Below are positions 22,101-40,037 of a DNA stretch of 64,000 bases, piece after piece. The position numbers were made by a program, and so were the translations under genes. Every line of letters starts with the position of its first letter. Position 1 is the stretch's first letter. The stretch covers positions 82,091 to 146,090 of the forward strand of contig JAADHR010000199.1 of assembly GCA_013151735.1 (NCBI GenBank), read 5' to 3'. The notes under the pieces were generated by a model. It did not search any database. It saw nothing but the letters and a program-made list of their open reading frames with translations, and was not told the origin of the DNA. Source of the DNA: Calditrichota bacterium (GTDB lineage: Bacteria > Zhuqueibacterota > JdFR-76 > BMS3Abin05).

Positions 22101-22488
22101 CTCGCGGAACCGGAAAAAGAAACAGTCCCAAATTGCGGCTTCTTTTCACTTTAAAGGAAAAGGCCTGGATCTTGAAAAGGGTCTGGATATACAGGGGGGT
22201 GCTGAGGTAACGGAGATTGGCCCCGCAACCACAGACAATTTGTTGAGAAGCCTGGATCCCCAGGGTCTTGACAAGAGTATTCAACAGGTGCGTCAGCTCA
22301 TTCGCTTCGGGGCAAAACCCAAGCTGATTTCCTTCCGTATCCGGCACGGAAACCTGTACCCAACGATTCTTCTGTCGCAGCCCTGGTATTATCCCTTTAA
22401 AATATCCGGCGGAAAAGTGTCGTTGGTGCGAATTCCGCTGTCGTTTGCGATTAATATGGCGCTGCAGACGTCAGAACCGATTCAGTAG
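19123..22488 (+). CDS. AsmA-like (AsmA/DUF748/YdbH-type) envelope protein
   Basis: Single N-terminal TM, FPPDKVQTLILEQL...IEVVEPHLFLRRNRNGVWNFEDL AsmA N-terminus, a long beta-rich body and an AsmA-like C-terminal region. Confidence 0.8.
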   Translation: MRKALRITSLIAVLFLGILIILYAYLRIKFPPDKVQTLILEQLRENTHRKITATSLRIHPFSGFELHDLVVYDTTRFPKRVFLTVKSVQLNYRLWSLFKKKIEIKRIEVVEPHLFLRRNRNGVWNFEDLISPSANSPAPDSSSQELKIPGIVKKISLRLREFSVRDAGMNAEIADSLGEAVAKIGPISVQLDHFVLKGLNPATLLDHLSFQLSVFSRRGKIQVSLVPARGVPLPGFFLKKIEASGEWTLQTEFRTPEQPDSTEGDTLARPSARVRVAGAFHLKPMAIRLFGTRVSSADSLIRLVNNLPDVRTELKGEVAPKTLSVKFLNIQAAVGAFLRTAIRVSADSLSSTPDVRVACQQGRVNLTELSTYLKTLPLLGNNPLKSARLSGIIDFSDFRARATSAENHFNGSYRLQPLVQHLSLAIPEIGAQITRFSAKLLATGQIRDSNFIRGDVKASFVLPSLSVAPAESLEISGKNILGSSHFVLGRNGVPKKINFMFSADSLLGAQISSYSEFTVASVPYLKNLKIEDFDGSTQIQIQGLDVGGISGGSARGHLSASGLLVASYGMNAFVQATVHSNDLQYRYAPGIFESLPEIDFTGKGNLKSAPGFQKVFLNDFRLTLNDFVNGVIRATVEPLQKKANAQLEEFSVDLSRVRPFLPSDILESLQFADWNGRVTVQAEAQAALNPETDSLKVTVNGQATVTVPYFIDSELLLNVNDLALQADFGGTPDHLNARFQGDVRSAFLRDVLAGPVKNTHFEGRAEIRDLDSIHLKHFSLNQPDLHAVVQASGDVTHLSETFPRLNLAGDFSVHSSQPFPTLVGITLSGNLLGHFRVKTDSLTPENVCADGAITLKGFNVAIEKTATIRGIRGEIPFRMGVDIERSLLISNKTAVPISLTLYPVFQPYYFRSDSLFRTIGVDTISVLNYTLTNLRSDIRVENGRILLPNTRINLYDGNLVSQMWLNLGTGQLKDMSYEIRAQIARVNSAKFPGSRNRKKKQSQIAASFHFKGKGLDLEKGLDIQGGAEVTEIGPATTDNLLRSLDPQGLDKSIQQVRQLIRFGAKPKLISFRIRHGNLYPTILLSQPWYYPFKISGGKVSLVRIPLSFAINMALQTSEPIQ

Positions 22489-22514
22489 ATGCAACGGTCA
22501 GAGGCATTAGTAAA

Positions 22515-23363
22515 ATGATGAAGAAGCCCTTAATTATTTTTTCTGCGCTGGAAAATGTGTTGGTAAACCCGCGGAGCTTTCAATGGGAGGATGCCCGGGA
22601 CATCCTCAATCGGGCGTATCTGAGAGGGATCCCCTGGGTAGTGTGGTCCCGCTGGCCTGTTCAGCAAGTGATCTATTTTCGCGGGCAGTTGGGACTCACC
22701 GATCCGTTTATTGTCGAAAGTGGAGGCGCGCTTTACATTCCCTTTGGCTATTTTGATGTTGAAATAAAGGCCGTTGAAAAAGAGGGGTGTGAGGTTATTG
22801 AAAATGGATTGCCTGTTGCGCCAATCAGGGAATTTATGGAGGAATTCAGGCGTGTGAATCATTTACCCATTCGGTTTGCTGAGGAATTTTCGGTAGAGGA
22901 ATTCGCCCAAATTGCGGGGATTCCATTGCATCTGGCGGGCTTTTACCAAAACGCCCGCTATTCACTTGCATTTTATGTGGATCCTTACGCCGGCGGGGAG
23001 TGGAGGGACAAACTAAATGTGCAGGCCTCAAAACGAGGAATCCGGATTCGAAAGGAAGGCTCGTTTTATATGGCCGTTGGAAGGAATAATGAAAGCGTTC
23101 TGGTTGCAAAATTGAAAAAGTGGTTTGAGATGAGCTGGGGTACGAACCCTGAAGTCATGGCCATTGGCGCCGCCCCTCCGGATACGCCCTATCTGAGGCA
23201 TGCGGATCGTACAATTGTGTTCAAAAACAAGGGAATGCCTGCAGCCAGTGAGCCTGCTGAAAAGGGTACGGTAACCGTGATGAGTTCGGCCAATCCGGAA
23301 AGATGGGAAGGGATTGCGAAACTTTTTGAAACAAACAGTGAGGAAGAAAGAGATGATCAATAG
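22515..23363 (+). CDS. HAD-IIB / mannosyl-3-phosphoglycerate phosphatase-like protein with degenerate catalytic motifs
   Basis: Scaffold matches MPGP (RGIP..., LGLTDPFIVESGGALYIP), but motif I reads FSALEN instead of FTDLDG and motif IV reads GAAPPD instead of GDSxND. Confidence 0.75.
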   Translation: MMKKPLIIFSALENVLVNPRSFQWEDARDILNRAYLRGIPWVVWSRWPVQQVIYFRGQLGLTDPFIVESGGALYIPFGYFDVEIKAVEKEGCEVIENGLPVAPIREFMEEFRRVNHLPIRFAEEFSVEEFAQIAGIPLHLAGFYQNARYSLAFYVDPYAGGEWRDKLNVQASKRGIRIRKEGSFYMAVGRNNESVLVAKLKKWFEMSWGTNPEVMAIGAAPPDTPYLRHADRTIVFKNKGMPAASEPAEKGTVTVMSSANPERWEGIAKLFETNSEEERDDQ

Positions 23364-24819
23364 ATTTCGAAAAGTATGGATATGGGGATTGGTTCTTCTG
23401 ATCGTTGGTGCCGTTTTGGCACCCGGTTGCGGGCAGAGGTCTCCCCGGGAGATGACCGTGCTCATTCAGGGGTCTGATGCGTACGCAAAATGGCTGCAGG
23501 AAAAATTGTCGGGTCTGGGAAAATCCTTTGGGTGGAAGATTACGGTTTCCGCCTATTTTCAGGATGAAGACCTCCTGGATATGCTTAATCTGGAAAAGGA
23601 TGGCCGTTCCAATAAAATGGGTGTGATTGAGGTCCCCCTGGAATTGTCGGATTATTTGCGCAAGAAAAAAATGATTATTCCTCTGAAACAGGCCGTGTCC
23701 GAGGAACAGTTACGGCAGGACCTCAGAATGTACGATTTTAGCCTTTTCCCGGAGGAGAACAATGCTCAAAAGGTGACTTTCCTTCCTGAACGCGGGACGC
23801 TTTTTCTAATGGCCTATTTTAAACCGGCTGTTCGCGAGGTACTCCGGGATTGGAGATTGTATGAAAGAGAGTTTTCTTTTGTCATGCAAAAATACAATCA
23901 TTGGGGGCTTCCTGTGGGGTACGCCATGGAAAAAAATCCCGAAAAATGGGATTTTTATGATTTGGCCTTTATGGCCTATTACTGGGCTGCCAAGCCCAGT
24001 CAGGGGTTGTTGATTCCCAGAATGGCGCATTCGGGGGCTCCCACAACCGGAACACTCAATGATTTGTCAACACGCGCTTTTGAATTGGGTGCTTCAACAA
24101 ATGATCTGTTCCATCCACTCAATACATCCGTGATAGACATGTTTCAATGGGAAAGCCTTTTTATAAAAGAGGGTCTTTACAATCCGGAGATGTGGGAGAA
24201 TAACTGGTTGGGAACCGATTTGATTTCTGAATTTCTATCGGAGAATATATTTCTGTCCTTCTTTGACCAATCCCAACTGTTCACGCTTTTTGGGGGGTTA
24301 GCGTCGGATACACTTCACGTTCCTCTAAAATTGAGTGAGGTTGGAATATCTACTCTCCCAAAAGGTTGTTCACTCCTGCTGGGGAAAAATCTTGTTTCTG
24401 AACGCGCGGGCAAAAAGGTGTCGGGATTCTATCTGTGGTCGCTCGGCATTCCATCCCGATTTCGAAATCCTCAATTGGCCTATAAAGTGATTCGCTTTAT
24501 AACGGGAGAAAATCTGCAGAAACAAGCCATGAACACCTTTGGGTATCTGCCGTCCCGGAAGAACATTCTTGCGGCGTCGGATTCCGTTCTGGATCGCCGC
24601 TGGAAACGGGAGATTTTTCGGGTTGTGAAAAAGCAATTAGCCATAGGTGTACAGCCATTTCCATCAGATTTCAAATGGAATAAGATTGGTGCCCTGTATT
24701 TGGCGGCATGGGAAAATATTTGTGTGGAGAAACAAACCACGCGTTGGAACGCGATTGAAAACGCGCTGAAATCCATGGATAACGAGGTGAAACAAATCGA
24801 AAAAACCGGTCAAAAATAA
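23353..24819 (+). CDS. extracellular solute-binding lipoprotein (family 1-like, sugar-binding type)
   Basis: Lipobox-like LAPG-C; SBP-like C-terminus (WSLGIP...NPQLAYKVIRFITG..LQ...FGYLPSRK). The start overlaps the upstream stop. Confidence 0.7.
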   Translation: MINRFRKVWIWGLVLLIVGAVLAPGCGQRSPREMTVLIQGSDAYAKWLQEKLSGLGKSFGWKITVSAYFQDEDLLDMLNLEKDGRSNKMGVIEVPLELSDYLRKKKMIIPLKQAVSEEQLRQDLRMYDFSLFPEENNAQKVTFLPERGTLFLMAYFKPAVREVLRDWRLYEREFSFVMQKYNHWGLPVGYAMEKNPEKWDFYDLAFMAYYWAAKPSQGLLIPRMAHSGAPTTGTLNDLSTRAFELGASTNDLFHPLNTSVIDMFQWESLFIKEGLYNPEMWENNWLGTDLISEFLSENIFLSFFDQSQLFTLFGGLASDTLHVPLKLSEVGISTLPKGCSLLLGKNLVSERAGKKVSGFYLWSLGIPSRFRNPQLAYKVIRFITGENLQKQAMNTFGYLPSRKNILAASDSVLDRRWKREIFRVVKKQLAIGVQPFPSDFKWNKIGALYLAAWENICVEKQTTRWNAIENALKSMDNEVKQIEKTGQK

Positions 24820-24848
24820 GTGCTTTTGTCACAGCGAAGGAGGCAAAA

Positions 24849-25409
24849 ATGAAAAAGGTCATAGGGTTTGGACTGTTGGCGATTCTGAGTGTCGGATTAT
24901 ACAGCTGCAGTATCAAAGCCCCCGAAGTCACCATTACAGGTGAGAAAACAACCCTTGAAAAGCAGGTTGAGGGGACGTATCAGGAGATTGAGAACGATGC
25001 CGATATGGTGGCCTCTACCCGGGCCCTTGAGGGCAAGCGGAAACCGGTGATGTCCATTGAAAAACGGCTGGTTTTAAAAGCCATTCAGAATCGCAAATTC
25101 AATCAGGATGATGTGGAAGAATTTAAACGCATGGGGATTTTTGGCGAAAATAATCAGGGACTACTGGAAATACGGAACCCGGATAAATTGGAAAAGAACC
25201 CGGAGCTCAAGAAACGGGCCCTCATGATTCTAAATGAAGAAAATCATGATCGTAAAATTATTATGAATCGAATTATCCAGGTAAACGAGAATCTAAAGAA
25301 CGCTTCTCCGGAAGAGGTTCAAGCCGTTTTTGCAAAAATGAATCGCGAGAATTCCAGACCCGGAACATGGATTCAGCTTCCAAATGGAAAATGGGTGAAA
25401 AAGAAATAA
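24849..25409 (+). CDS. DUF1318 / YdbL-family lipoprotein
   Basis: Lipobox LYS-C; GIFGENNQGLLE, EENHDRKIIM and PGTWIQLPNGKWVKK are DUF1318 motifs; AGGAGG RBS. Confidence 0.85.
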   Translation: MKKVIGFGLLAILSVGLYSCSIKAPEVTITGEKTTLEKQVEGTYQEIENDADMVASTRALEGKRKPVMSIEKRLVLKAIQNRKFNQDDVEEFKRMGIFGENNQGLLEIRNPDKLEKNPELKKRALMILNEENHDRKIIMNRIIQVNENLKNASPEEVQAVFAKMNRENSRPGTWIQLPNGKWVKKK

Positions 25410-25604: not shown

Positions 25605-28600
25605 TTGCGTTTCAAGACCCAAAATCAGTTTTCCATCCTTCAGATTTTTCCGTTTTTTGCAGGATTTTTGTTGGCTGTTCTCTGGGCTTCAACGGCCGTA
25701 TCGCAGGAAGCCGGACTTTCTTCCTATTATGAAAAATTGTTTTCTCCGCGCTTGGAGGGGCTGCAGCACCTAACGACCCACCCGAAAAATGATATCTTTC
25801 CTTCGCTTTCACCCCGGGGGAAGTGGCTGGTGTTTGCCTCGGACCGCAATCAAAACTATGACATCTGGGCCAAAAACACTCAGACGGGAGACCTGTTTCA
25901 ACTCACCACTCACAAAAGTGAAGACACTCAGCCGGTCTGGTTTCCAAACGGGAAACAAATTGTTTTTATCTCCAAACGATCGGATGGGTTGGGAGATCTG
26001 TATCTTCTTTCTGTGCGCCTCTTTCGGGGTTATCTCCTCTCAAAAAAAACGACGCAATTAAACGACTATCTGGGGTACGATGGCGAGCCGGCCGTCTCTC
26101 CCGACGGGAAATGGGTGGCGTTTGTCAGTGACCGGCAAACCGGACGAAAAAATATCTGGCTCCTGAGAATGAAAACCCGCAAGGTCTTTCAGGTAACGAC
26201 CAACGGCGGATTCTCGCCGGCATTTTCTCCGGGAGGCCGGTGGCTGACCTTTACCAAATTCTCGAAGGGACGCTGGCAAATTGTTAGAATCCCGTTTTCT
26301 CCCGAAGAATTTCCTGTCTCTCCCGAAAAGGAATCTGTTGTTTTTTCGTCAGGCAATCCTTCAGGTTTTTCCGCCTGGAGCGATTCATCCCACATTTTAG
26401 TCGTAACCTATCCCTACGACACCAACGGGGATGGGAAGAAAACGGTTTCAGATCATGGTGTTCTGGTCGAATGTTCCTCAACCCCGCCAAAAGACGGCCA
26501 TTTTGACGAAGCCAATCTTCCGGTGTTTAAAACCTCGGGAATCTGGGGATCCTATTTTCCCGTTTGGGGGAAAACCGGGAAGATCCTTTTTTCATCGGAC
26601 TTTGAGGGAAATAAGGATATCTGGGCCATGGAGCCGTTTGGCGAGATTCGCATTCCGGATACCCCCTGGGCCATTTCAGCGTTTGCCGAGCAGAAATTTC
26701 CCCTTCAACCGGTGCGGTATTTTCAGGTTCTGAATGATTCTTCGTTTCAAACGGTCTGGCGGAGAGCCCGAAAGACCTACCTCTTGCAGCGCCTGTTTGT
26801 TTTGAGAAAGGGTTTACAGCGTGCCCAGGGCTCCCCGGATTTCTTTTCTCAATTTGCCTTTAAAATGGGAGAGACGGCGGAAAAGCTCGGCTGGAACAAC
26901 TTAGCCGACACGTATTATTCCCGGGCCATTCAGGATGGGGCAACGCAGACTCCCTGGGCGCTCCGGGCGCAACTGGCGCTCTGGAGGTTGGGTACCCTTC
27001 ACCCGGCCGCTGAAATGGTTGAAATCGATTCGCTTCTTTCCCAGACAATTCGGGACAAGACGTCCCGGGCGCTGCTGTATCTGGAACAGGCAAGGCTTTT
27101 CAGGAAACTGGGAAAATACAATCAGTCGCTGGAAAGGCTTCAATCCGTCCTGAATGAAAAAGCCATTGCCGTGGATGTAATTTTTCGTGCGGGCCTTATG
27201 CTGGGGGAAATCTACACGGAACTACAGAATTTTCAATTGGCTGTCAAAACAGAGGCCGCTCTTCTGCGCCTGCACCCCGATGCCTTTTACTGGAATCAGG
27301 TGGTTCTTCAAAAAATAAAATGGATCCTGTCTCAAAATCCGGAGTGGTCCGATCCGGTTCAGGAGTATCAGTTTTTTATTCAAACCTATTCGGACATCCC
27401 GCAGCTCGCCGCATGGGCTCAATACGAGATCGGGTACACGTACGAGAAGCAGGGAGATTTTCGGGTAGCCATTCGTGAATTCGTGCGTACCCGGACCCAC
27501 TATTCCACGGAGCGGGAAGCCTATTTCAGGGCGACCGTTGGTTTGATTGCAATAAACCATTTCATGAAGGATTCGCAGGCTCTGATTCGCGTGTGCCGGG
27601 AGACGCTTCAAAAGGGCACTCTTTTGGATTCCACACAGGTCTGGTGGGTACGGCAGAATTTGGTTCGTGCCCTGTTGAATAAAGGGGAAAAACTCCTTTC
27701 ACAAAATGACTGGCAACTGGCACGTTCGGCTTTTCAATCGGTGCTTGCAACCGATTCCCTGAATGTAGAGGCCCACCGGGGGATTGTGAAGTGTGCCGAC
27801 CGGGGAAATCAATTAGCAGCCGTAATCGGTCACTATCGGGAGAAAATCCTCAAAAGTCCCGAAAATGATGTTTACCTGTACACCCTGGGTCTGGCCTATT
27901 CTTATCTGGCAACGCGGCAGGAGCGGCTTTCGGAGGAATATCGTCTTTTGCGGCTTTCAAATCGTTACCTCGAAAACGCCCTCAAGCGTAATTACCGGTT
28001 GGTTTACGCGTACCTGACACTGGGATTCAATTATGAAACTCTGGCGGGCCTGGAGCGAATGCTGAAAAATCAAAAGGAACCGTTGGTTTCGCGCATTACA
28101 AAGGGTGTTCTGGCTCCGGTCTTCTGGGCCGTTCGGACGCTTACGTTCCAAAAAGCCCCCGCACAACACCTCTGGTATGAAAAAGCCATTGACCTTCTCA
28201 CCGTAGGTGTGTCCATTAATAACGAGAAAAAAAATCCGACCTTAGAGGCCCAGCTCACCCTGAATTTGGCCAATAATTATTATCAAATGGGTGAATTTGG
28301 TTTTGAGAAGGCCTTTCATTACTACCGCATCCGCATGCAATTGGACTCCACATTCCGCTCCGTTCAGCAAGAAGCGCTTGTGTATGAGCGGATGGGGCAT
28401 TGCGCCATTATCCTCGAAAACTGGCCGGAAGCGGTAAAGGATATTTCGAAAGCGATTTCACTGTATCGGCAGCAGAAAAACACCCCGAAAATTCTGGAAA
28501 ATACGGATCGTCTGGCCTGGGCCTATTTCATGTCGGGGGAGTACGATCTTGCGGTTGAAAACTATCTGGATATTCTGAGAACGGTGCGAACGCTTCAAAA

Positions 28601-31600
28601 TCTCCCGGAAAAGGAACGAACCCTGGAGAGACTCCATCGGAATTTGGCCAATGCGTATCTGTATTTACACGATTTTCGGAGTTCGCTGAAGCATTTGCAA
28701 ATCGCATTAAATCTCCTGGATTCGGGGAAGATCAAGGACAAGCATTCGTTAAAAGGATATTTGCGCATCGAGTTTTTGGGTTACTCCATCCCGGTTTTTA
28801 ATATCAACAAACTTCTTGAACAAGGGGGAAGTAAAGGGGTGTTAACCGTGGCCGATGAGCGGGCCCTTCTCTACACGCTTCTAAAAAAGAATTATGTCGA
28901 ACAAAAGTATCTCTTACAGGCCATCCGGGTTTTGGAAGAAAAGAGAAGGCTGTTTCACCAGAAGAAAGACCATTTGGCCGAGGCGGTTACCGAAAATAAT
29001 CTGGGGTTTCTCTACTCCTTTTATGGGGATTATGAAAGTGCCTGGAAAAAATTTAGTCGTTCATTTTCCATTTGCCGGGATAGGAAGTATTGGTCCGGTG
29101 CGGTGATTAATCTTAATAATATCGCCCGACTGACCCTTGCTTTTTGGACAAAAGAAAAACTGACCGGAGAAACGCCGCAAACCATTACGGTGGATTACAA
29201 GCGGGTTTTGGCCCTTCTGATGACGGGCCGCAGCTATCTGGAAAACATTCCCTATGGAATGGCCAAAGAACGGGTGGCCCTGTTGTACCAGACAGGAATT
29301 TTGAAAACACTTTTGTATCTTTTGCCGTTGCGCACGCAGCAGGACACGTCATCGGTACGCACGATTCAGCGTTACGCGGCGGCCACAGACGTTTTGCAAA
29401 TTTATGGCCGCGCGCTGGACTGGGCGGCACGGCTGCATTTGATGCGCGAACAAATTATTCTTCGGAAAAATCGGGCGGATATTTATCTGTTCTTGGGGTG
29501 GCCGGACGAAGCCAGAGCCGATCTGCAGGCCGCCCGGCAGCTGGCTCTTCAAACAGGAGCCTCCAATTTGCTGTGGCGGATCGATTTTGCAATGAGTACC
29601 CTGAGTCAGCCGGGGGAAAGGCCCCTGGCACCTGATTCGACCGCCTTCCGCTTGCTTGAAGAAGCCGTTCAGATTCTCGAAACGACACCGGACACAACCG
29701 GAGGTCGCCAGTTTATTGGCGAGCCCCGCCTGGATCAGGAACTTGTGTACGAAACCTACTTGAACAAGGAGGCTCGTGCCGGGCGGGTGAAGAAGGCCCT
29801 TGAAATCAGTGAGAGGCGTGAAGAAAAGTGGTTTTTGGATGATCTGAGCGGATACAGGCTGAAATTGAAATTGGAATCGCACAAAATATTTTACGGCAAT
29901 GCCCGCTATTTACTCCTTGAAATAGCCCGGCAGAAAAACAGCCTGCGAGAATTGTCGGCTCGAAAAATCCCCGATATTAAGCGTCAATCCCGCATAAAGG
30001 CTCATCTGGACAGTCTTCAGACAGAATACACGCAGATGATCCGGCAGTACCTTCAGACCGAACCCGAATTGGTTGCACTTGTTCAGCCCGTTACCATTCC
30101 GGTCAAAAAGATTCAGGCCATTTTAAAACCGCGTACCGCGTTGATCAGGTATGATCTGGGTCTGAAAGACAGCTGGGCCTGGATGGTAACACGCGACACC
30201 GTTTTGCAGGCAGCCCTGCCGGTTTCGAAGGCGGAGGTGGTTTCGCGTGCCAAAAAAGCCCTGGCAATGAAAGGAGTCTGCGCGGAACCCGATTCAAATT
30301 TTCACTGGCTAAGCCAAAATTTGATTGATCCGCTCCTCAAGCAAGGCCAGCCCTTTTCGCGGCTCATTTTTGTTCCGGACAGAAGCCTGCTGGAATTTCC
30401 CTTCGGTCGTTTACCTTACAAAAACGGGTGTCTTTCCGATTCTGTTTCCATTCAGTATGCTGCGGATTTAATGAGTTTCTATTTTCAGTTTCAGAAGAGG
30501 CATATCCCCCAGAAAAAAATCGCATTTGTTTCCCCGGGAAAGGCCGTATTTGATTTTTCGGTTCCTTCCAAAGCAACCCTGGTACGGGATGTCCGGCGGT
30601 CAGCCACAGAGCTAAATCTCCGAAAGGTGGTGCAGGATGCGGATATCATTCACCTGAAGGTACCACTCCTTACGGATCGGTTTCAGCCCATGCGGATGGC
30701 ATTTGGATTGCGCTATCCAAATGTGAAATGGCGCAAAATGTCCACACTGATTTCACCTTTTCCTCCAAACAACGACGGCCGGCTTCACATGCACGAGGTT
30801 TTCGGATTGGATTCCCGGGCAAATGTGCTGATTCTCGAGAGGGATCCTTCTCAAGGGCAGACTCCAATTCCCTCGTCCGATTTAATGACCCTTGTTCATG
30901 CGTTTACTTACGCCGGGGTTCCCTCGTTTATCTTCCAGATGCACACTCTTCCCGAAAAAGCCAGGCGCCTGTTTTTTAATGAATTTTACAAGCACGTGTT
31001 TACTGAGCGTCCCTTTGACGCATTCGAAATGGCTCAGAAGAAAGTCAGGCAGGTTTTCCCCGATCCGGATGTGTGGGATGCGTATCGTTGGTTTGGATTT
31101 GAAGGCATGTCCCCCGGGGAGGAGGTGCAATTTGCAAAGAGCCGGCTCAACCGGATGTTTGCAATGGGGTACCGTTTTGCACAGAAGGGCTACTGGTGGG
31201 ATGCCATTCGCAATTATGAGCAGGCCCTCCGGATGGCCAAGCTGCTGAAACAAACGGCGAAGGTGGTTATTCTGTATCAGCAATTGGTAGAGGCAAGTGC
31301 CAATGGAAAATACTGGCCGCGCGCCGCCCATTATCAAGAGCTTTTGAATCGGTTTTACGAAAATCAAAAAGACTGGGAATCTCTTCTGGAAGGAACCCAT
31401 GCGGCGCTGGTTTTTTACAGTCACCTCCACAATCGAAAAAAAATGGCTTTCTACCAAAAGAAATACGAAAAATTGCTGGCCCAGTTGGGGACGCATGCGG
31501 AACAGGCACAGGCCTTTCGGCAAATTGCGCTCTTGCAGGAGCGAAATAAGAATTACTCCGAGGCGCTTTCCTTTTTGAAAAAGGCCCTCCGGATCTACCA

Positions 31601-34019
31601 AAAACTGGGAAAACCGGCTGAAAGCGCACAAATTCTGCTGGATTTGAGTCGGATTCATCTGAAATATCTGGATGCCTACAGTCAGGCCATTGCGTATGCT
31701 GAAAAGAGTTTGTCGCTTGTTAAGAATGAACCCCCTGCAAAAATACACATGCGAATTTACCAGTATCTGGGGCTGGCGTACGAGAAAATTGGTTCGTACC
31801 AAACATCGCTTGATTTCCAGATGAAAGCGGCGGCGTTGTCTCGAAACCTTGGGAATTTGAGTGATCAGGGACTGGAACACCAATTTTTGGCCAACATTTA
31901 CTGGAAGATGGGAGATTACCTCCACGCCCTGAAAGAGCAGGAGAAGGCCATCGAGATCTTCCAAAAATTGAAGGACCCCCGGCTCTTGAAACTGGCCTAT
32001 TCAACCAAAGGCCTTATTTTCATGAGTTTGAATGAAATTCCAAAGGGCCTGTCCCTTGAAATGCAGGCCCTGGCTCTGGCCAGATCCCTTGGGGACAGCC
32101 TGGACGAAGCGACTATTCTTAAAAACATTGGCAACGGATATGCCCGGCAGGCCAATTGGGATTCTGCCCGAACAGCCTATCGGCAGGCGATAAAAATTGA
32201 CAGTCTGATTTCGGCCAAACGGGGACTGGGGTACGATTTTCGAAATCTGGGTCTTTTCTTTTTGCAGGAGAAAAAGAATAAAGCGGCATTGGGGTATATG
32301 AAGCGGGCCCTTGCCATGAGCCGGCGCATTCGCGACCGCCGGAATGAGGCGTCCTGTTTATTGGGATTGGGGCGTATCTATCACCAAATGGGCCGGGTGG
32401 ATTCCGCCCTTGCGTATGGGAAAGAGGCCGTTCGTTTGGCGCAACAATTGGAAATCCCGGAAATCACCTGGCAGGCCTTTGAGTTTTTAGGGGACACCTG
32501 GACACAGAGGGATTCATTGCAAAAGGGCTTGCAGGCGTACGAAAAAGCCATTGATGTGATTGAAAAACAACGCGCGCAGATTCGGGTGGAAAGTTTTCAA
32601 ACCGGCTTTCTGGCGGATAAAATGGGGGTGTACGGGAAGGTCATCAATTTGCTGGTGCGACAGCATAAACCGCGGAAAAGCTTCGAATTTGCAGAGCGGG
32701 CAAAATCCAGAAGCTTTATCGACATGCTGGGCAATCGAAAAATAAATTTTCGGGAGGGCGCCGATTCAACAGCTCTAAAACAGGGAAATCACATCCAGAA
32801 TACCATTCAACGGTGGCAAAACATTCTGGCGCAAGTGTACCAAACACCCGAAATGACGCCCGCTCTGAAAGACAGTATTTCCCGCATCCGCGCCACGCTT
32901 GACCGCTTGCGAGCCCGTTACCGGGATTTTTTGGATCGGCTTCGAATGGACAATCCGGAACTGGCGTCGATGGTGTCTGTGGAGCCGTTTCGGGTCGGGG
33001 ACATTCAACGCTCTCTCGACGACTCAACAGCGCTTTTGGCGTATTACGTTCTTCCCAAAAAACTGATTCTCTGGACGCTTCGGAAAGATACCATCGCCGT
33101 GTCGTCTGTACCGATTTCCTCCAAAAAATTGATTAATCTGGTCAGGATGTTTCGGGCGGATTTGCAGAAGAAACTTCCCATTGATGACCAGGCCAGGCGC
33201 CTGTACCGTATTCTCATTCGTCCGGCGGGAAATTTTCTGAAACCGTGCTCGCAGCTCATTCTGGTGCCGCACGGTGTGCTTCATTATCTGCCCTTCGGGG
33301 CCCTGATGGACGGCAAGGGCCGATATGTGCTGGAGCGGTTCCGTCTGGCAAATGCCCCCAGCGCCACGGTCCTGAAATTCTGCCTGCAAAAGGGGGATCA
33401 TTTTCAAAAGACAAAAGGCGTTATCCGAAAGGTTCTGGCCGTTGGTGATCCGGATTTGGGTAATCCTCGCTACGACCTGCCGTTTGCCGAAAAAGAGGCG
33501 GAAAGCCTGAAACGCACCTTTTCGGAAACAACCGTTCTTTTGCGAAAACGAGCAACGGAAACCCGGGTAAAACGGATTATCGGAGAATATGACCTGGATC
33601 TCTTTTCGACCCACGGGGAATATGACCCGGTGAATCCGCTTTTTTCGGCCCTGCGGCTGACGCCCGACTCCTTGAACGACGGCCGTCTGGAAGCGTGGGA
33701 AATATTTGGCCTTCGGATGAACGCATTTTTGGTCACAATGAGCGCCTGCGAAACGGGTCTGGGAAAGATAACCCGAGGAGATGAAGTGATCGGGTTATCG
33801 CGCAGTTTTATTTTTGCGGGAACACCTGCCGTGGTAGCCTCCCTCTGGAAGGTCGATGATCTGACAACGGCAGTCATTATGAAGCGATTTCATCGGTACC
33901 TGCATCAGGGGCTTTCCCGGGCTCAGGCCTTGAAAGAGGCTCAAAACTATGTCCGGCAGTACATCCATCCGTATCCCTATTTCTGGGCGGCGTTTTATCT
34001 GACGGGGGATCCGCGGTAG
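25605..34019 (+). CDS. 2804-aa exported PD40/TolB-like propeller - TPR - CHAT (inactive) - TPR - CHAT (intact) protein
   Basis: Signal-peptide-like N-terminus; repeated PSLSPRGKWLVFASDR / PAVSPDGKWVAFVSDR PD40 units; long TPR arrays; C-terminal CHAT with STHG (His2670) and SACETG (Cys2715); internal CHAT-like domain lacking both. Confidence 0.88.
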   Translation: MRFKTQNQFSILQIFPFFAGFLLAVLWASTAVSQEAGLSSYYEKLFSPRLEGLQHLTTHPKNDIFPSLSPRGKWLVFASDRNQNYDIWAKNTQTGDLFQLTTHKSEDTQPVWFPNGKQIVFISKRSDGLGDLYLLSVRLFRGYLLSKKTTQLNDYLGYDGEPAVSPDGKWVAFVSDRQTGRKNIWLLRMKTRKVFQVTTNGGFSPAFSPGGRWLTFTKFSKGRWQIVRIPFSPEEFPVSPEKESVVFSSGNPSGFSAWSDSSHILVVTYPYDTNGDGKKTVSDHGVLVECSSTPPKDGHFDEANLPVFKTSGIWGSYFPVWGKTGKILFSSDFEGNKDIWAMEPFGEIRIPDTPWAISAFAEQKFPLQPVRYFQVLNDSSFQTVWRRARKTYLLQRLFVLRKGLQRAQGSPDFFSQFAFKMGETAEKLGWNNLADTYYSRAIQDGATQTPWALRAQLALWRLGTLHPAAEMVEIDSLLSQTIRDKTSRALLYLEQARLFRKLGKYNQSLERLQSVLNEKAIAVDVIFRAGLMLGEIYTELQNFQLAVKTEAALLRLHPDAFYWNQVVLQKIKWILSQNPEWSDPVQEYQFFIQTYSDIPQLAAWAQYEIGYTYEKQGDFRVAIREFVRTRTHYSTEREAYFRATVGLIAINHFMKDSQALIRVCRETLQKGTLLDSTQVWWVRQNLVRALLNKGEKLLSQNDWQLARSAFQSVLATDSLNVEAHRGIVKCADRGNQLAAVIGHYREKILKSPENDVYLYTLGLAYSYLATRQERLSEEYRLLRLSNRYLENALKRNYRLVYAYLTLGFNYETLAGLERMLKNQKEPLVSRITKGVLAPVFWAVRTLTFQKAPAQHLWYEKAIDLLTVGVSINNEKKNPTLEAQLTLNLANNYYQMGEFGFEKAFHYYRIRMQLDSTFRSVQQEALVYERMGHCAIILENWPEAVKDISKAISLYRQQKNTPKILENTDRLAWAYFMSGEYDLAVENYLDILRTVRTLQNLPEKERTLERLHRNLANAYLYLHDFRSSLKHLQIALNLLDSGKIKDKHSLKGYLRIEFLGYSIPVFNINKLLEQGGSKGVLTVADERALLYTLLKKNYVEQKYLLQAIRVLEEKRRLFHQKKDHLAEAVTENNLGFLYSFYGDYESAWKKFSRSFSICRDRKYWSGAVINLNNIARLTLAFWTKEKLTGETPQTITVDYKRVLALLMTGRSYLENIPYGMAKERVALLYQTGILKTLLYLLPLRTQQDTSSVRTIQRYAAATDVLQIYGRALDWAARLHLMREQIILRKNRADIYLFLGWPDEARADLQAARQLALQTGASNLLWRIDFAMSTLSQPGERPLAPDSTAFRLLEEAVQILETTPDTTGGRQFIGEPRLDQELVYETYLNKEARAGRVKKALEISERREEKWFLDDLSGYRLKLKLESHKIFYGNARYLLLEIARQKNSLRELSARKIPDIKRQSRIKAHLDSLQTEYTQMIRQYLQTEPELVALVQPVTIPVKKIQAILKPRTALIRYDLGLKDSWAWMVTRDTVLQAALPVSKAEVVSRAKKALAMKGVCAEPDSNFHWLSQNLIDPLLKQGQPFSRLIFVPDRSLLEFPFGRLPYKNGCLSDSVSIQYAADLMSFYFQFQKRHIPQKKIAFVSPGKAVFDFSVPSKATLVRDVRRSATELNLRKVVQDADIIHLKVPLLTDRFQPMRMAFGLRYPNVKWRKMSTLISPFPPNNDGRLHMHEVFGLDSRANVLILERDPSQGQTPIPSSDLMTLVHAFTYAGVPSFIFQMHTLPEKARRLFFNEFYKHVFTERPFDAFEMAQKKVRQVFPDPDVWDAYRWFGFEGMSPGEEVQFAKSRLNRMFAMGYRFAQKGYWWDAIRNYEQALRMAKLLKQTAKVVILYQQLVEASANGKYWPRAAHYQELLNRFYENQKDWESLLEGTHAALVFYSHLHNRKKMAFYQKKYEKLLAQLGTHAEQAQAFRQIALLQERNKNYSEALSFLKKALRIYQKLGKPAESAQILLDLSRIHLKYLDAYSQAIAYAEKSLSLVKNEPPAKIHMRIYQYLGLAYEKIGSYQTSLDFQMKAAALSRNLGNLSDQGLEHQFLANIYWKMGDYLHALKEQEKAIEIFQKLKDPRLLKLAYSTKGLIFMSLNEIPKGLSLEMQALALARSLGDSLDEATILKNIGNGYARQANWDSARTAYRQAIKIDSLISAKRGLGYDFRNLGLFFLQEKKNKAALGYMKRALAMSRRIRDRRNEASCLLGLGRIYHQMGRVDSALAYGKEAVRLAQQLEIPEITWQAFEFLGDTWTQRDSLQKGLQAYEKAIDVIEKQRAQIRVESFQTGFLADKMGVYGKVINLLVRQHKPRKSFEFAERAKSRSFIDMLGNRKINFREGADSTALKQGNHIQNTIQRWQNILAQVYQTPEMTPALKDSISRIRATLDRLRARYRDFLDRLRMDNPELASMVSVEPFRVGDIQRSLDDSTALLAYYVLPKKLILWTLRKDTIAVSSVPISSKKLINLVRMFRADLQKKLPIDDQARRLYRILIRPAGNFLKPCSQLILVPHGVLHYLPFGALMDGKGRYVLERFRLANAPSATVLKFCLQKGDHFQKTKGVIRKVLAVGDPDLGNPRYDLPFAEKEAESLKRTFSETTVLLRKRATETRVKRIIGEYDLDLFSTHGEYDPVNPLFSALRLTPDSLNDGRLEAWEIFGLRMNAFLVTMSACETGLGKITRGDEVIGLSRSFIFAGTPAVVASLWKVDDLTTAVIMKRFHRYLHQGLSRAQALKEAQNYVRQYIHPYPYFWAAFYLTGDPR

Positions 34020-35272: not shown

Positions 35273-36631
35273 ATGACCGATGAAGTTTCAATTCTCATTG
35301 CGGATGACGAAGAAGATTTTCGAATCATCTTTTCGGATATTATTCAAAAAATGGGCTACCATGTGGAAACCGCCCAAAATGGGCAGGAAGCCCTTGCCGT
35401 AGTGGAACGTCATCCCATTGACATTGCGTTAGTCGATTTTAAAATGCCCGGCATGAGCGGACTGGAGCTATTGAAGGAAATAAAATCACGAAAACCCCAG
35501 ATTGAGGTGATTTTAATTACCGGAATGGGAACCATTGATTCGGCTGTGGAGGCCATGAAATCGGGGGCGTATGATTATATCACGAAGCCGGTTAATTTTG
35601 AAGAGCTGGAGAATGTCCTCCGGCGAATTATTCAGACCCAATCGCTCATTCGAGAAAACCAAATTTTAAAGGAAGCGGTCCGCCAAAAATACAAATTCCA
35701 GAATCTGATCGGGGCCACGCCTCAGATGCAGAAGGTTTTTCAGATTATTGAAAAGATCAGCAAAAACCGAAGTACCGTTCTGATTCAGGGAGAAAGCGGA
35801 ACCGGAAAGGAGCTTATCGCGCGAGCCATTCATTTTAACGGGCCCTGGGCAGATAAGCCGTTCTTGCCGGTGGATTGCAGTGCCATTCCTGCGAATTTGG
35901 TGGAAAGTGAGCTGTTCGGGCACGAAAAGGGATCATTTACGGGGGCCCTCTATTCCAAGAAAGGTCTTTTCCGCCTGGCGGAGGGAGGGACCGTTTTTCT
36001 GGATGAGATTGGCGAACTGCCGCGGGACGTCCAGCCCAAACTCCTGCGTGCGCTGCAGGAACGGGAGGTGAAACCGGTTGGCGGTTCCAGGCCGATTCCC
36101 GTCGATGTCCGAATTATTGCAGCGACCAATCAGAATCTGGAAGAGGCCATTTCCGAAGGCCGCTTTCGGGAAGACCTGTTCTATCGCCTGAATGTGGTCC
36201 AAATCGACGTGCCTCCTTTGCGGGAAAGGCGCGATGACATTCCGCTGTTGGTTCAGCACTTCATTGAAAAATACCGAAAAAAGCAGGCTAAATCCGGAAT
36301 TAAGCGAATCTCCCCGGAAGCCCTTCAGGTACTTATGTTGTATCATTGGCCCGGAAATGTGCGGGAACTGGAAAATGTGATTGAGCGCACATTTGCTCTT
36401 GGCGGCACAGAAACCATTCAAGTTTCAGATTTGCCCGATTATTTGATCCAGCAAATTCCGAAAGATAATCCGCCTGAAAGGACTGTTCTGCGTTCTTTAA
36501 GAGAAATTGAGAAAGAGGCCATCGATCGCACCCTCCGTGCCGTCAAGGGGGACCGGAGTCGGGCGGCCGAAATCCTGAAAATCGATCGGACAACCCTCTA
36601 TCGGAAAATAAAGCGCTACAAGTTATCGTGA
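35273..36631 (+). CDS. sigma54-dependent response regulator (NtrC/AtoC family)
   Basis: Receiver domain (ADDE...DFKMPG...KP), GESGTGKE, ESELFGHEKGSFTGA, FREDLFYRLNV, WPGNVRELEN and a Fis-type HTH. Confidence 0.96.
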   Translation: MTDEVSILIADDEEDFRIIFSDIIQKMGYHVETAQNGQEALAVVERHPIDIALVDFKMPGMSGLELLKEIKSRKPQIEVILITGMGTIDSAVEAMKSGAYDYITKPVNFEELENVLRRIIQTQSLIRENQILKEAVRQKYKFQNLIGATPQMQKVFQIIEKISKNRSTVLIQGESGTGKELIARAIHFNGPWADKPFLPVDCSAIPANLVESELFGHEKGSFTGALYSKKGLFRLAEGGTVFLDEIGELPRDVQPKLLRALQEREVKPVGGSRPIPVDVRIIAATNQNLEEAISEGRFREDLFYRLNVVQIDVPPLRERRDDIPLLVQHFIEKYRKKQAKSGIKRISPEALQVLMLYHWPGNVRELENVIERTFALGGTETIQVSDLPDYLIQQIPKDNPPERTVLRSLREIEKEAIDRTLRAVKGDRSRAAEILKIDRTTLYRKIKRYKLS

Positions 36632-36674
36632 AAATTGTGCCCCACTCCATTCCCATTTCTTTTTAATCTGCCTG

Positions 36675-36882
36675 TGCAAAATGCCACTGAGTGGCAATTT
36701 GCAACGGAAGGCACCGCGCATGTATTCTTTGAAAAACAGGTGGATTCCTTCTCATATTACGCTTTAATAAACAGCAGGTTGTATAAAACAGAAGTGTTCT
36801 TGAGCAAATACTGAAGGCTGATCTGACCCATTTTTCCCGCTTTTCTGGCCAAACACCCCATGCCCTGAATGCAAATAGCCAC
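36675..36882. promoter_or_regulatory. three copies of the motif TGCAAAwwGCCAC (candidate enhancer sites)
   Basis: tgcaaaatgccac at 36675-36687 (+), tgcaaattgccac at 36691-36703 (-), tgcaaatagccac at 36870-36882 (+). Confidence 0.5.
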
Positions 36883-37067
36883 ATTCTTTCCTTTTTGTCA
36901 CATACAAAACATTTTTGTAATCTTTTGAAAATTGTCTAACTCCTTAATAATCAACCGACTTATTTTTTCTGCTCGACTGGCCGAAATTATTAAATGGAAC
37001 ACTATTTGTGGTACAACAGGCAAAGGAGTAATTTTTGTCATCCCAAAAATAGGCCGCGCAGGGAATA

Positions 37068-37517: not shown

Positions 37518-37645
37518 TTCACTGCAGACGGAGGTAATGGGACATATCAGAGGTTTTTTGAACACGTCCGGCATGTGTATTAATTGGAAGATGTCGGTAA
37601 ACAGGATTCCAACTGCGGAAATGAAACACGAATAAAATAGAAGGA

Positions 37646-38412: not shown

Positions 38413-38421
38413 AGAGAAAAT

Positions 38422-40026: not shown

Positions 40027-40037
40027 GAGAGGAGAAA

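What the first reader, a model, noticed from the sequence alone, without database searches (positions are those of the whole stretch)
25605..34019. 2804-aa exported protein with tandem dead and active CHAT (caspase-fold) domains
The architecture is signal peptide, PD40 propeller (with a DTNGDG Ca-binding-type loop), TPR, CHAT-1, TPR, CHAT-2. CHAT-2 keeps the dyad (His2670 in STHG at 33612; Cys2715 in SACETG at 33747). CHAT-1 (about 29.7-31.1 kb) keeps the scaffold (LIFVPD..L..FPF, DADIIHL, DGRL...EVFGL, AF.YAG.P, W..Y...G) but THG becomes KVP and SAC becomes ERD. A pseudo-protease next to an active protease recalls separase-like regulation. An extracytoplasmic location is unusual for this protease clan, and there are no cas genes here, so it is not a Craspase.
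Basis: partly seen in the sequence, partly recalled or inferred. Interest (0 to 1): 0.78.

Follow-up and report, generated by a model that had tools for sequence, protein, structure and literature searches.

The report
Giant exported tandem dead/live CHAT protease
This gene encodes a 2,804-residue protein sent out of the cytoplasm that carries a TolB-like propeller and two copies of a separase/Csx29-type protease module, only the second of which can still cut; it belongs to a large unstudied family that in many bacteria sits next to genes for an outer-membrane lipid-bridge system.

Summary
ORF 25605-34019 (+) encodes 2,804 aa: signal peptide, TolB-like beta-propeller with a conserved EF-hand-like loop, about 1,050 aa of TPR-like solenoid, then two TPR-CHAT modules. 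These two modules are a tandem duplication of a ~930-aa unit (23% identity over 973 columns). CHAT-2 keeps His2670/Cys2715 and is the most conserved part of the protein. CHAT-1 passes the Pfam threshold and its model matches Csx29 and separase, but it has neither catalytic residue, here or in any of 78 orthologous ORFs.

Export is well supported: 61/66 orthologues have a signal peptide. It is not unprecedented, because DdvA is a periplasmic TPR-CHAT. The separase analogy is loose, because a single TPR-CHAT module already has its own pseudo-caspase subdomain.

New here:
- The protein belongs to a large family of 2,550-2,880-aa proteins in KSB1, Calditrichota, Zixibacteria and Nitrospinota.
- Outside Nitrospinota the gene lies beside an AsmA-like gene and/or a YdbL-family (DUF1318) lipoprotein gene in 35/43 loci.

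Most likely it is a periplasmic, scaffolded, single-site cysteine endopeptidase acting in envelope homeostasis, with the dead module as a built-in non-catalytic partner. This is a new variant of a known kind. No substrate is known.

The parts
25605..34019 (+). Whole gene: 2,804-aa exported PD40/TolB-like propeller - TPR - dead TPR-CHAT - live TPR-CHAT protein, TTG start, stop included
   Evidence: AAGGA lies 9-13 nt upstream of the TTG. The 85%-identical orthologue P0002 was called from the homologous TTG.
25605..25706 (+). Signal peptide (aa 1-34: MRFKTQNQ + hydrophobic FSILQIFPFFAGFLLAVLWASTAV + S|QE). The h-region is long, so an uncleaved signal anchor is not excluded.
   Evidence: Only hydrophobic segment in the protein. 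A start codon + K/R + hydrophobic stretch lies just upstream of the propeller in 61/66 orthologous loci. SignalP not run.
25752..26639 (+). TolB-like beta-propeller (aa ~50-345; four PD40 repeats recognised by Pfam)
   Evidence: Pfam PD40 E 3e-36 on aa 1-432. AF2 model of aa 36-440: pLDDT 92.3, pTM 0.90. Foldseek top hits are TolB (2w8b_A, E 9e-15, rmsd 3.1 A over 246 columns), then S9 peptidase propellers.
26418..26453 (+). EF-hand-like D-x-N-x-D-G-x5-D loop (DTNGDGKKTVSD, aa 272-283) inside the propeller region
   Evidence: D272, T273, D276 and D283 are at least 90% conserved in 24 family members. Alignment shown. Ca2+ binding is inferred from the motif only.
26640..29801 (+). TPR-A: ~1,050-aa TPR-like helical solenoid (aa 346-1399), with the family signature LNLANNYYxxGEFG near aa 884
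   Evidence: Pfam TPR_12, TPR_2, TPR_1 and TPR_16 hits. Colinear in all family members. Signature peptide used.
29802..31184 (+). CHAT-1 module (aa 1400-1860): helical hairpin + small beta subdomain + caspase-fold core (Pfam CHAT aa 1567-1826, nt 30303-31082). Catalytically dead: Pro1687 (nt 30663) at the His column, no Cys.
   Evidence: Pfam E 7e-14. AF2 pLDDT 88.3, pTM 0.88. Foldseek hits Csx29 (7y8t_B, E 1.3e-11), separases (E ~1e-8) and SAVED-CHAT. 0/78 orthologous ORFs have His+Cys.
31185..32621 (+). TPR-B (aa 1861-2339): TPR array of the second module
   Evidence: Pfam TPR_12 x8 and the TPR_2, TPR_1 and TPR_MalT best stretches lie here. It aligns colinearly with the distal part of TPR-A.
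32622..34016 (+). CHAT-2 module (aa 2340-2804; Pfam CHAT aa 2529-2802, nt 33189-34010) with catalytic His2670 (nt 33612-33614) and Cys2715 (nt 33747-33749). The protein ends with the last strand of the fold; no extra C-terminal sorting domain.
   Evidence: Pfam CHAT E 3.5e-77. phmmer aligns STHGEYD and SACETG with the Csx29 catalytic motifs. Dyad kept in 72/78 aligned orthologous ORFs, of which five exceptions are truncated contigs. Most conserved region, 92% down to 48% identity.
24849..25409 (+). Upstream neighbour: 186-aa DUF1318 (YdbL-family) predicted lipoprotein, 195 bp before the giant gene
   Evidence: Pfam DUF1318 E 3.5e-12. The C-terminus aligns with E. coli YdbL, PDB 28oj. The N-terminus MKKVIGFGLLAILSVGLYSC is lipoprotein-like. 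Found upstream on the same strand in 29/36 non-Nitrospinota loci.
19123..22488 (+). Upstream neighbour: 1,121-aa AsmA-like/DUF748 protein with an N-terminal membrane anchor
   Evidence: Pfam AsmA E 1.2e-17 and DUF748 E 2.3e-18. Linked to the giant gene upstream in 24/36 and downstream in 7/32 non-Nitrospinota loci.
22515..24819 (+). Two genes of unknown function between the AsmA-like and DUF1318 genes (282 aa; about 488-501 aa, a predicted lipoprotein). Conserved only in the closest relatives.
   Evidence: No Pfam family at E <= 0.001. Present in L001, L006, L007 and L009; only the larger one in L002.

Best explanation
The gene encodes a Sec-exported, periplasm-resident giant cysteine endopeptidase of the TPR-CHAT (separase/Csx29) kind with one live active site.

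Shown:
- An N-terminal signal peptide, a TolB-like propeller and a long TPR solenoid.
- A tandem duplication of a ~930-aa TPR + linker + CHAT module.
- The first copy has lost His and Cys in every family member.
- The second copy keeps both residues and is the most strongly conserved part of the protein.

Inferred:
- The propeller (with its EF-hand-like loop) and the TPR arrays dock the protein onto envelope partners and present a specific substrate to CHAT-2.
- The dead module is kept as a non-catalytic partner of the live one. It may act as a fused pseudo-dimer, comparable to the DdvA homodimer or to FLIP(L)/caspase-8, that gates or completes the single active site.
- The gene sits beside an AsmA-like bridge protein and a YdbL-family lipoprotein. 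The protein therefore most likely acts in outer-membrane or envelope homeostasis, by limited proteolysis of an envelope protein or of itself, rather than in defence or nutrition.
For: Architecture and dyads.

Duplication: aa ~950-1832 align colinearly with aa ~1867-2801, E 4e-22.

Fold of the dead module: AF2 pLDDT 88.3; Foldseek finds Csx29 at E 1e-11 and separases at E 1e-8.

Ancient pseudo-enzyme state: 0/78 orthologous ORFs have His+Cys in CHAT-1, against 72/78 in CHAT-2. The CHAT-2 core is 92-48% identical to orthologues, against 78-19% for the CHAT-1 core. The same dead-TPR-live tandem occurs in ~1,600-aa lipoproteins that lack the propeller.

Export:
- Single N-terminal hydrophobic segment.
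- Signal peptides in 61/66 orthologues, some with lipoprotein-type Cys.
- The propeller's best structural match is periplasmic TolB.

Housekeeping character:
- 111 relatives among GTDB species representatives, nearly all full length.
- About 100 of the best 150 hits in the 50%-identity cluster library have the giant two-module architecture.
- Ordinary chromosomal context and GC content.
- No defence-gene hits.

Envelope link:
- An AsmA-like and/or DUF1318 gene lies beside the gene in 35/43 non-Nitrospinota loci, at giant-protein identities down to 24%.
- The link survives rearrangement: in L018 and L023 the order is giant -> FecR-domain protein -> AsmA-like.
- The genes overlap or are 5 nt apart in L002 and L003.
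- In E. coli, YdbL modulates the YdbH-YnbE lipid bridge and is turned over by a periplasmic protease, DegP (PMC13464000).
Against: - No experiment exists for any member, and no substrate is identified.
- Nitrospinota orthologues show no AsmA-like or DUF1318 linkage (0/26), so the link is not universal.
- One full-length orthologue (L079) and two metagenome members (P0017, P0023) lack the CHAT-2 dyad. Distant spirochaete relatives lack a recognisable catalytic CHAT. Part of the function is therefore non-catalytic.
- The pseudo-dimer role of CHAT-1 is pure inference. The two CHAT cores could not be modelled together (1,219 aa against a 1,200-aa limit; no coordinates or PAE are returned).
- The 24-residue h-region could be a signal anchor rather than a cleaved signal peptide.
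- The 195-bp spacer to the DUF1318 gene gives no clear evidence for or against co-transcription.
Confidence: 0.6

Rival explanations
1. Mainly a non-catalytic periplasmic scaffold or tether, for example a TolB-like and TPR platform organising an envelope complex. The CHAT-2 dyad would serve only for self-processing or be a dispensable relic.
For: More than 60% of the protein is propeller plus TPR. CHAT-1 is a conserved pseudo-enzyme. The CHAT-2 dyad is lost in L079, P0017 and P0023. Colinear spirochaete relatives have no recognisable catalytic CHAT.
Against: CHAT-2 is by far the most conserved region. Its dyad is kept in every full-length orthologous ORF aligned except one (72 of 78 aligned; five of the six exceptions are truncated contigs). 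This is the signature of a working enzyme.
Confidence: 0.2
2. A periplasmic sensor-protease of a defence or conflict pathway, like DdvA, Craspase, or gasdermin- or SAVED-CHAT-type systems. It would fire on a phage- or competitor-derived protein.
For: Several characterised bacterial CHAT proteases act in defence (PMC11506125, PMC10028731, PMC9729208). The closest structural matches are Csx29 and SAVED-CHAT. DdvA shows that a periplasmic TPR-CHAT can be such a sensor.
Against: No cas, CBASS, gasdermin, ECF sigma or anti-sigma gene, and no PADLOC hit, in the gene or its neighbours. No CRISPR-like repeats. The family keeps a fixed length and a conserved housekeeping-type neighbourhood across phyla. 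That pattern is unlike mobile, patchy defence genes.
Confidence: 0.1
3. A secreted or surface protease for protein degradation and nutrition, with the propeller gating substrate access as in Tricorn or S9 peptidases.
For: The precomputed Pfam hits include Tricorn_N and Tricorn_2nd. S9 peptidase propellers are the second-best structural matches. A subtilase gene lies elsewhere in the window.
Against: There is no C-terminal secretion or sorting domain: the protein ends with the last CHAT strand. TolB is a better match than the peptidase propellers. Characterised CHAT/separase-type enzymes are specific endopeptidases. The synteny is with envelope-biogenesis genes, not with uptake systems.
Confidence: 0.06
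4. A cytoplasmic protein: the true start is the TTG at codon 23, as in the database gene call, so there is no signal peptide.
For: The public gene call P0001 is 2,782 aa and starts at codon 23, which also has an AGGA upstream.
Against: The upstream 22 codons are conserved as protein in orthologues at 85% and 78% identity. One of these was called from the homologous TTG and the other from an ATG three codons further upstream. 61/66 orthologues have a complete signal peptide. A start at codon 23 would leave half a hydrophobic segment at the N-terminus.
Confidence: 0.03

Closest known systems
Csx29 / TPR-CHAT of type III-E Craspase
   Same: An N-terminal TPR array followed by a linker and a caspase-fold CHAT protease with a His-Cys dyad. 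It is the best structural match of the CHAT-1 module (7y8t_B, E 1.3e-11, TMq 0.53). The catalytic motifs of CHAT-2 align with it.
   Different: Csx29 is a ~700-aa cytoplasmic protein bound to Cas7-11 and activated by RNA. Here there are no cas genes. The protein is exported and four times larger, with a propeller and two modules, one of them dead. Sequence similarity is marginal (E 0.0014).
Separase (peptidase C50)
   Same: A giant helical-repeat scaffold plus a caspase-fold protease with a pseudo-protease element. Structural hits 9hms_C, 5mz6 and 7nj1 at E 1e-8 to 1e-6. Weak Pfam Peptidase_C50 hit on CHAT-2 (E 0.009, below cut-off).
   Different: Separase's pseudo-protease domain is directly adjacent to the active domain inside one protease region. 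Here the dead unit is a full duplicated TPR-CHAT module ~700 aa upstream. Separase is eukaryotic, nuclear/cytoplasmic and regulated by securin.
DdvA periplasmic TPR-CHAT anti-sigma factor (Myxococcus xanthus; PMC11506125)
   Same: An extracytoplasmic TPR-CHAT of the separase/craspase type. Two TPR-CHAT units work as a pair (a homodimer), with the active sites facing the partner. This is the best precedent for the tandem modules here.
   Different: DdvA has a cytoplasmic zinc anti-sigma domain, a TM helix and an ECF sigma partner, and it regulates a defence island. Both of its CHATs keep the dyad. Here there is a cleavable-type signal peptide and a propeller, with no sigma/anti-sigma parts. The two units are fused in one chain and one is dead.
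TolB (Tol-Pal system)
   Same: A periplasmic PD40 beta-propeller. It is the best structural match of aa ~50-345 (rmsd ~3 A over ~250 columns). NCBIfam gives a partial match (88 bits).
   Different: The score is far below the TolB equivalog cut-off (343 bits). No TolB N-terminal domain is matched (the NCBIfam TolB hit covers only propeller repeats), the gene is not in a tol-pal operon, and it is fused to 2,400 further residues.
Pseudo-protease/protease pairs: FLIP(L)-caspase-8 (PMC7586951), pseudo-orthocaspases (PMC6426788), fused CspB-CspA of C. difficile (PMC7200643)
   Same: A catalytically dead paralogue kept next to, or paired with, a live protease of the same fold and used for regulation.
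   Different: These are different protease families or separate chains. None is a TPR-CHAT and none is a tandem within an exported giant protein. This comparison is an analogy of logic only; nothing here tests it.

Membership tests
CHAT domain (Pfam PF12770) | HMM match above the curated gathering score | tested here: met
   Whole protein 260 bits against a cut-off of 24. CHAT-1 alone scores 52.4 bits, E 7e-14, over profile positions 5-283 of 289.
CHAT domain (Pfam PF12770) | Caspase-haemoglobinase fold | tested here: met
   The CHAT-1 module model (pLDDT 88.3) matches Csx29, separases and SAVED-CHAT. CHAT-2 was not modelled; this rests on the HMM and on motif alignment to Csx29.
Active CHAT/clan CD peptidase | His-Cys catalytic dyad at the conserved positions | tested here: met
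   CHAT-2 has His2670 (STHG) and Cys2715 (SACETG), conserved in 72/78 orthologous ORFs. The same feature is NOT met in CHAT-1, which has Pro1687 and Ser1749 and 0/78 with His+Cys. CHAT-1 is therefore a pseudo-enzyme domain. Enzymatic activity itself cannot be tested with these tools.
Separase/Csx29-type TPR-CHAT module | TPR array N-terminal to the protease region; pseudo-caspase subdomain directly preceding the active caspase domain | tested here: inconclusive
   TPR before each CHAT is met. The CHAT-1 model has a helical hairpin and a three-stranded beta subdomain before the core, and it aligns to Csx29 over 395-521 columns. Residue-level correspondence to the Csx29 pseudo-caspase (PMC10028731) could not be inspected.
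Type III-E Craspase (Cas7-11 + Csx29 + Csx30) | Adjacent cas7-11/gRAMP, csx30/rpoE genes and a CRISPR array | tested here: not met
   No such genes among the window ORFs of 200 aa or more. PADLOC finds only a generic TPR hit. No spaced direct repeats.
DdvA-type TPR-CHAT anti-sigma factor | N-terminal zinc anti-sigma domain + single TM helix + cognate ECF sigma gene | tested here: not met
   The N-terminus is a signal peptide followed directly by a propeller. The neighbours are a DUF1318 gene and an aminotransferase gene; the only regulator nearby is a sigma-54 activator.
TolB (TIGR02800) | Full-length equivalog score; N-terminal alpha/beta domain + propeller; tol-pal operon | tested here: not met
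   88 bits against a cut-off of 343. Only the propeller fold matches. No tol/pal genes lie adjacent.
New family: giant exported propeller - TPR - dead CHAT - TPR - live CHAT proteins | Colinear five-part architecture over ~2,550-2,880 aa with a signal peptide | tested here: met
   The order prop-tprA-m1-tprB-m2 holds in P0001-P0025, P0028 and in 60+ of the best 150 representatives. 78 GTDB loci are nearly all full length. Signal peptide in 61/66.

The most novel reading that the evidence does not exclude
The family is a dedicated periplasmic protease/pseudo-protease machine of an AsmA-like lipid-bridge system. In this reading:
- The TolB-like, Ca2+-loop-bearing propeller and the TPR-A array dock on an outer-membrane lipoprotein or on the bridge itself.
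- The live CHAT-2 clips the YdbL-family lipoprotein, or the AsmA-like protein, to license or dismantle bridge assembly. It would take the role that DegP plays for YdbL in E. coli.
- The dead CHAT-1 module is an intramolecular FLIP-like or DdvA-like partner that keeps CHAT-2 off until the right partner binds.

This would be the first caspase-fold protease assigned to outer-membrane lipid homeostasis.
Probability: 0.15. Interest if true: 0.8.

Novelty: new variant of a known kind. Interest (0 to 1): 0.55.

Why it matters
Several bacterial CHAT proteases have been characterised (Csx29, SAVED-CHAT, DdvA, HetF). Most act in defence, and Csx29 and separase are described as cytoplasmic units (PMC11506125).

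This finding defines a large, phylum-spanning family found in KSB1, Calditrichota, Zixibacteria and Nitrospinota. Its features are:
- It places a separase-type protease in the periplasm.
- It fuses that protease to a TolB-like propeller.
- It always pairs the live protease with a full-length dead copy of itself.

The family offers a natural, single-chain system for asking what a pseudo-protease does for its live twin.

Its repeated genetic coupling to AsmA-like and YdbL-family genes gives a concrete, testable lead. The question is how envelope lipid-bridge systems are controlled outside the Proteobacteria.

It also flags a recurring annotation error: the start codon is called inside the signal peptide.

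Tried and rejected
- The search for related loci with the 24-sequence alignment A1 failed, because no conserved 7-10-column stretch was found. It was repeated with the 11 closest sequences (A2).
- I looked for a YnbE-like lipoprotein domain in the N-terminal 90 aa of the DUF1318 protein, and for any family in the 282-aa and 488-aa neighbours. Nothing usable came up, only SBP_bac_8 at E 0.017.
- The PADLOC scan of the gene and six neighbours found only a generic TPR model, plus RtcR/PspF-type hits that simply reflect the sigma-54 activator. The defence reading was therefore marked down.
- A search for CRISPR-like spaced repeats found none.
- The promoter/terminator scan of the 195-bp spacer and of the 3' end found no + strand site in the spacer. 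This is uninformative about co-transcription.
- A possible sigma-54-type promoter in the spacer was considered. The match to the consensus is poor and the spacer is poorly conserved in L006, so it was dropped.
The span is 1,219 aa against a 1,200-aa limit, and the tool returns no coordinates or PAE.
- A literature search for 'two CHAT domains', 'tandem CHAT', 'inactive CHAT' or 'second CHAT domain' found no paper. A search combining CHAT domain with PD40, TolB or AsmA found nothing relevant.
- Direct sequence search of CHAT-2 against the PDB gave only Csx29, at E 0.0014.
Full report

Yes. The window has one uninterrupted frame from the TTG at 25605 to the stop at 34019 on the + strand, 2,804 codons.
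- DTNGDG at aa 272 (nt 26418).
- STHG at aa 2668, so His2670 = nt 33612.
- SACETG at aa 2713, so Cys2715 = nt 33747.
- LIFVPD at aa 1587, DADIIHL at 1678, DGRL at 1724 and 2692, LILERD at 1742.

Pfam on the whole protein gives CHAT (E 3.5e-77, two stretches, best aa 2529-2802), PD40 x4 (E 1e-31) and a dozen TPR families. The internal region scanned alone passes the CHAT gathering score: 52.4 bits against 24, E 7e-14, profile positions 5-283 of 289, aa 1567-1826.

BLASTP of CHAT-1 against CHAT-2 gives 26% identity and E 4e-11. It puts Pro1687 in the His column and Ser1749 in the Cys column.

**2. Start codon and export**

The only strongly hydrophobic 19-residue window in the whole protein is aa 8-33. 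It is preceded by Arg2/Lys4 and followed by A-V-S|Q-E. The TTG at 25605 has AAGGA 9-13 nt upstream.

The public database calls this same protein from codon 23 (P0001, 2,782 aa). That start would cut the hydrophobic segment in half. The longer start is supported in three ways:
- The 85%-identical orthologue P0002 was called from the homologous TTG (MRFKIKNFF...).
- The 78%-identical P0003 was called from an ATG three codons further upstream.
- The coding sequence and the AAAAAGGAT motif upstream of it are conserved in all three DNAs.

Across orthologous loci that include the N-terminus, 61 of 66 have a start codon, basic residues and a hydrophobic stretch immediately before the propeller. Several have lipoprotein-type Cys residues instead. 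SignalP could not be run. The h-region here is long (24 residues), so an uncleaved signal anchor is not excluded. Either way the bulk of the protein is outside the cytoplasm.

**3. Anatomy**

An AF2 model of aa 36-440 (16-sequence alignment) is confident: pLDDT 92.3, pTM 0.90. Its best PDB matches are TolB propellers (2w8b_A, E 9e-15, rmsd about 3 A over 246 columns), followed by the propellers of S9 peptidases.

Inside this domain the loop D-T-N-G-D-G-x5-D (aa 272-283) is nearly invariant across the family.

Residues ~346-1399 are a TPR-like solenoid. The remaining ~1,900 residues are a tandem duplication: aa ~950-1832 align colinearly with aa ~1867-2801 (23% identity over 973 columns, E 4e-22). 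Each copy consists of a TPR array, a helical linker and a CHAT domain.

The AF2 model of the first copy's C-terminal part (aa 1400-1860) is also confident: pLDDT 88.3, pTM 0.88. It matches Csx29/TPR-CHAT of Craspase (E 1.3e-11), separases (E about 1e-8) and SAVED-CHAT. The internal region really has the CHAT fold.

**4. The family**

A protein search found about 25 full-length homologues of 2,437-2,871 aa with the same Pfam content. Local HMMs for the five parts (propeller, TPR-A, module 1, TPR-B, module 2) hit them all in the same order.

A scan of one genome per GTDB species found 111 relatives. The 78 loci kept nearly all cover query residues ~50-2804. They come from MAGs labelled KSB1, Calditrichota, Nitrospinota/Nitrospina, 'Cytophagia', 'Deferribacteres' and unclassified bacteria. 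Zixibacteria appear.

In the library of 50%-identity representatives, about 100 of the best 150 hits to the CHAT-1 module profile are proteins of 2,500-2,880 aa with two or three matched stretches.

Dyad census:
- CHAT-2 has His+Cys in 72 of 78 aligned ORFs. Five of the six exceptions are truncated contigs in which the aligned piece is really CHAT-1. One full-length protein (L079) has lost the dyad. Two metagenome members (P0017, P0023) have lost it too.
- CHAT-1 has His+Cys in 0 of 78.

The CHAT-2 core is the most conserved region of the protein (92% to 48% identity across ten orthologues). The CHAT-1 core is among the least conserved (78% to 19%) but is never deleted.

The same dead-CHAT - TPR - live-CHAT tandem also occurs in ~1,600-aa predicted lipoproteins without the propeller and TPR-A (P0094, P0105, P0108, P0120). 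The dead+live pair therefore behaves as a unit.

**5. Genomic context**

The window is ordinary chromosome:
- RtcB, UvrA, a subtilase, Lon, MscS.
- A partner-switching module and a chemotaxis operon.
- Type IV pilus and secretin genes.

GC content across the gene is unremarkable. There are no cas genes among the window ORFs of 200 aa or more, no CRISPR-like spaced repeats and no PADLOC hit beyond a generic TPR model.

Upstream on the same strand lie four genes:
- An AsmA-like/DUF748 protein of 1,121 aa with an N-terminal membrane anchor.
- Two genes without family assignment.
- A 186-aa DUF1318 (YdbL-family) predicted lipoprotein that ends 195 bp before the giant gene.

This linkage recurs:
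- AsmA-like -> DUF1318 -> giant is found next to orthologues at 85%, 38%, 28% and about 26% identity. The DUF1318 and giant genes overlap or lie 5 nt apart in L002 and L003.
- In the non-Nitrospinota GTDB loci, DUF1318 lies upstream in 29/36, AsmA-like upstream in 24/36 and AsmA-like downstream in 7/32. One or the other is present in 35/43.
- In L018 and L023 the order is giant -> FecR-domain protein -> AsmA-like -> ParA-like ATPase. The association survives rearrangement.
- In Nitrospinota it is absent (0/26). There the gene stands alone next to a divergent antiporter-like gene.

In E. coli, YdbL is a periplasmic modulator of the YdbH-YnbE intermembrane lipid bridge and is degraded by DegP (PMC13464000, PMC11126948).

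**6. How it most likely works**

Shown: an exported protein with one intact caspase-fold active site at its C-terminus, preceded by a conserved dead copy of the same module, a long TPR scaffold and a TolB-like propeller.

Inferred:
- The propeller and the TPR arrays recognise envelope partners and substrates.
- CHAT-2 performs limited, specific proteolysis, as separase, Csx29 and HetF do.
- The dead module is retained because it is needed by the live one.

The best precedent for the last point is DdvA. Its two periplasmic TPR-CHAT units form a dimer with each active site facing the partner, and the authors propose that the adjacent monomer completes each active site (PMC11506125). A tandem duplication followed by loss of one dyad would give a fused, asymmetric version of such a pair. 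The logic resembles FLIP(L)-caspase-8 (PMC7586951).

In separase and Csx29 the pseudo-caspase is an adjacent subdomain of a single protease region (PMC10028731), and each module here appears to carry its own equivalent.

The synteny points to envelope or outer-membrane homeostasis as the field of action. My confidence is about 0.9 for the anatomy and export, about 0.4 for the envelope role and about 0.3 for the pseudo-dimer role.

**7. Rivals**

- A mainly structural scaffold. It is supported by the occasional loss of the CHAT-2 dyad and by spirochaete relatives with no recognisable catalytic CHAT. It is opposed by the extreme conservation of CHAT-2.
- A defence sensor of the DdvA or Craspase kind. 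It is opposed by the context, the PADLOC result and the phylum-wide vertical pattern.
- A nutritional secreted protease. There is no sorting domain, and TolB is a better match than peptidase propellers.
- A cytoplasmic protein through a later start. Orthologues contradict this.

**8. Novelty**

The open literature library holds no paper mentioning two, tandem or inactive CHAT domains. None links CHAT with PD40, TolB or AsmA. Source annotations are generic: 'CHAT domain-containing protein' or 'tetratricopeptide repeat protein'.

The components are all known kinds, and extracytoplasmic TPR-CHAT has a precedent. I therefore rate this a new variant of a known kind: a new, large architectural family with a built-in pseudo-protease and a new genomic association. 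No substrate, phenotype or structure of the pair is available yet.

Noticed in passing
window 19123-25409: Same-strand cluster upstream of the finding: an AsmA-like/DUF748 gene, two genes with no family assignment (282 aa; ~488-501 aa, a predicted lipoprotein with a weak SBP_bac_8 hit) and a DUF1318/YdbL-family predicted lipoprotein. It resembles a ydbH-ynbE-ydbL-type lipid-bridge locus, but no YnbE-like domain was detected.
   Followed up: yes
window 25605-25673: The public gene call for this protein (P0001, 2,782 aa) starts at the TTG of codon 23, inside the signal peptide. Orthologues support the start at 25605. This is a likely systematic annotation error for this family.
   Followed up: yes
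window 6184-9013: uvrA appears split into two overlapping ORFs in different frames: 6184-8007 (UvrA_inter, UvrA_DNA-bind, ABC) and 7832-9013 (ABC_tran). This is a frameshift, either real or an assembly error.
   Followed up: no
P0094, P0105, P0108, P0120, P0159, P0164 (representative library): ~1,600-aa predicted lipoproteins carry the same module-1 - TPR - module-2 tandem without the propeller and TPR-A. The first module lacks His/Cys in the four where it could be aligned (P0094, P0105, P0108, P0120). The second keeps both in all six.
   Followed up: partly
P0029, P0032, P0037, P0038-P0047 (Spirochaetota / Leptospiraceae): Proteins of 2,440-2,720 aa, several of them predicted lipoproteins, share the propeller; P0029, P0032, P0037 and P0038 also share TPR-A. 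P0029 still has His and Cys. The others show no recognisable catalytic CHAT and may be fully non-catalytic relatives.
   Followed up: partly
L018 18283-24390; L023 18172-23740: Alternative gene order in some KSB1-like or 'Cytophagia'-labelled MAGs: giant gene -> FecR-domain protein -> AsmA-like protein -> ParA/MinD-like ATPase.
   Followed up: partly
L041, L043 and other Nitrospinota loci: Nitrospinota orthologues lack the AsmA-like/DUF1318 neighbours. The divergent upstream neighbours are a Proton_antipo_M membrane protein and a TPR protein. In L041 a convergent 312-aa ORF downstream has a sub-threshold DUF748 hit.
   Followed up: partly
window 35273-48623: Downstream signalling block: a sigma-54 response regulator, a stand-alone receiver, a STAS / HATPase_c_2 / GAF-SpoIIE partner-switching set, CheW, two MCPs, CheA-CheW-receiver, CheB and CheR-TPR. 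It is syntenic in the closest relative, L001.
   Followed up: no
window 30882-31964 (-): A 360-aa antisense ORF lies entirely inside the CHAT-1/TPR-B coding region. It is listed mechanically only, and there is no evidence that it is a gene.
   Followed up: no
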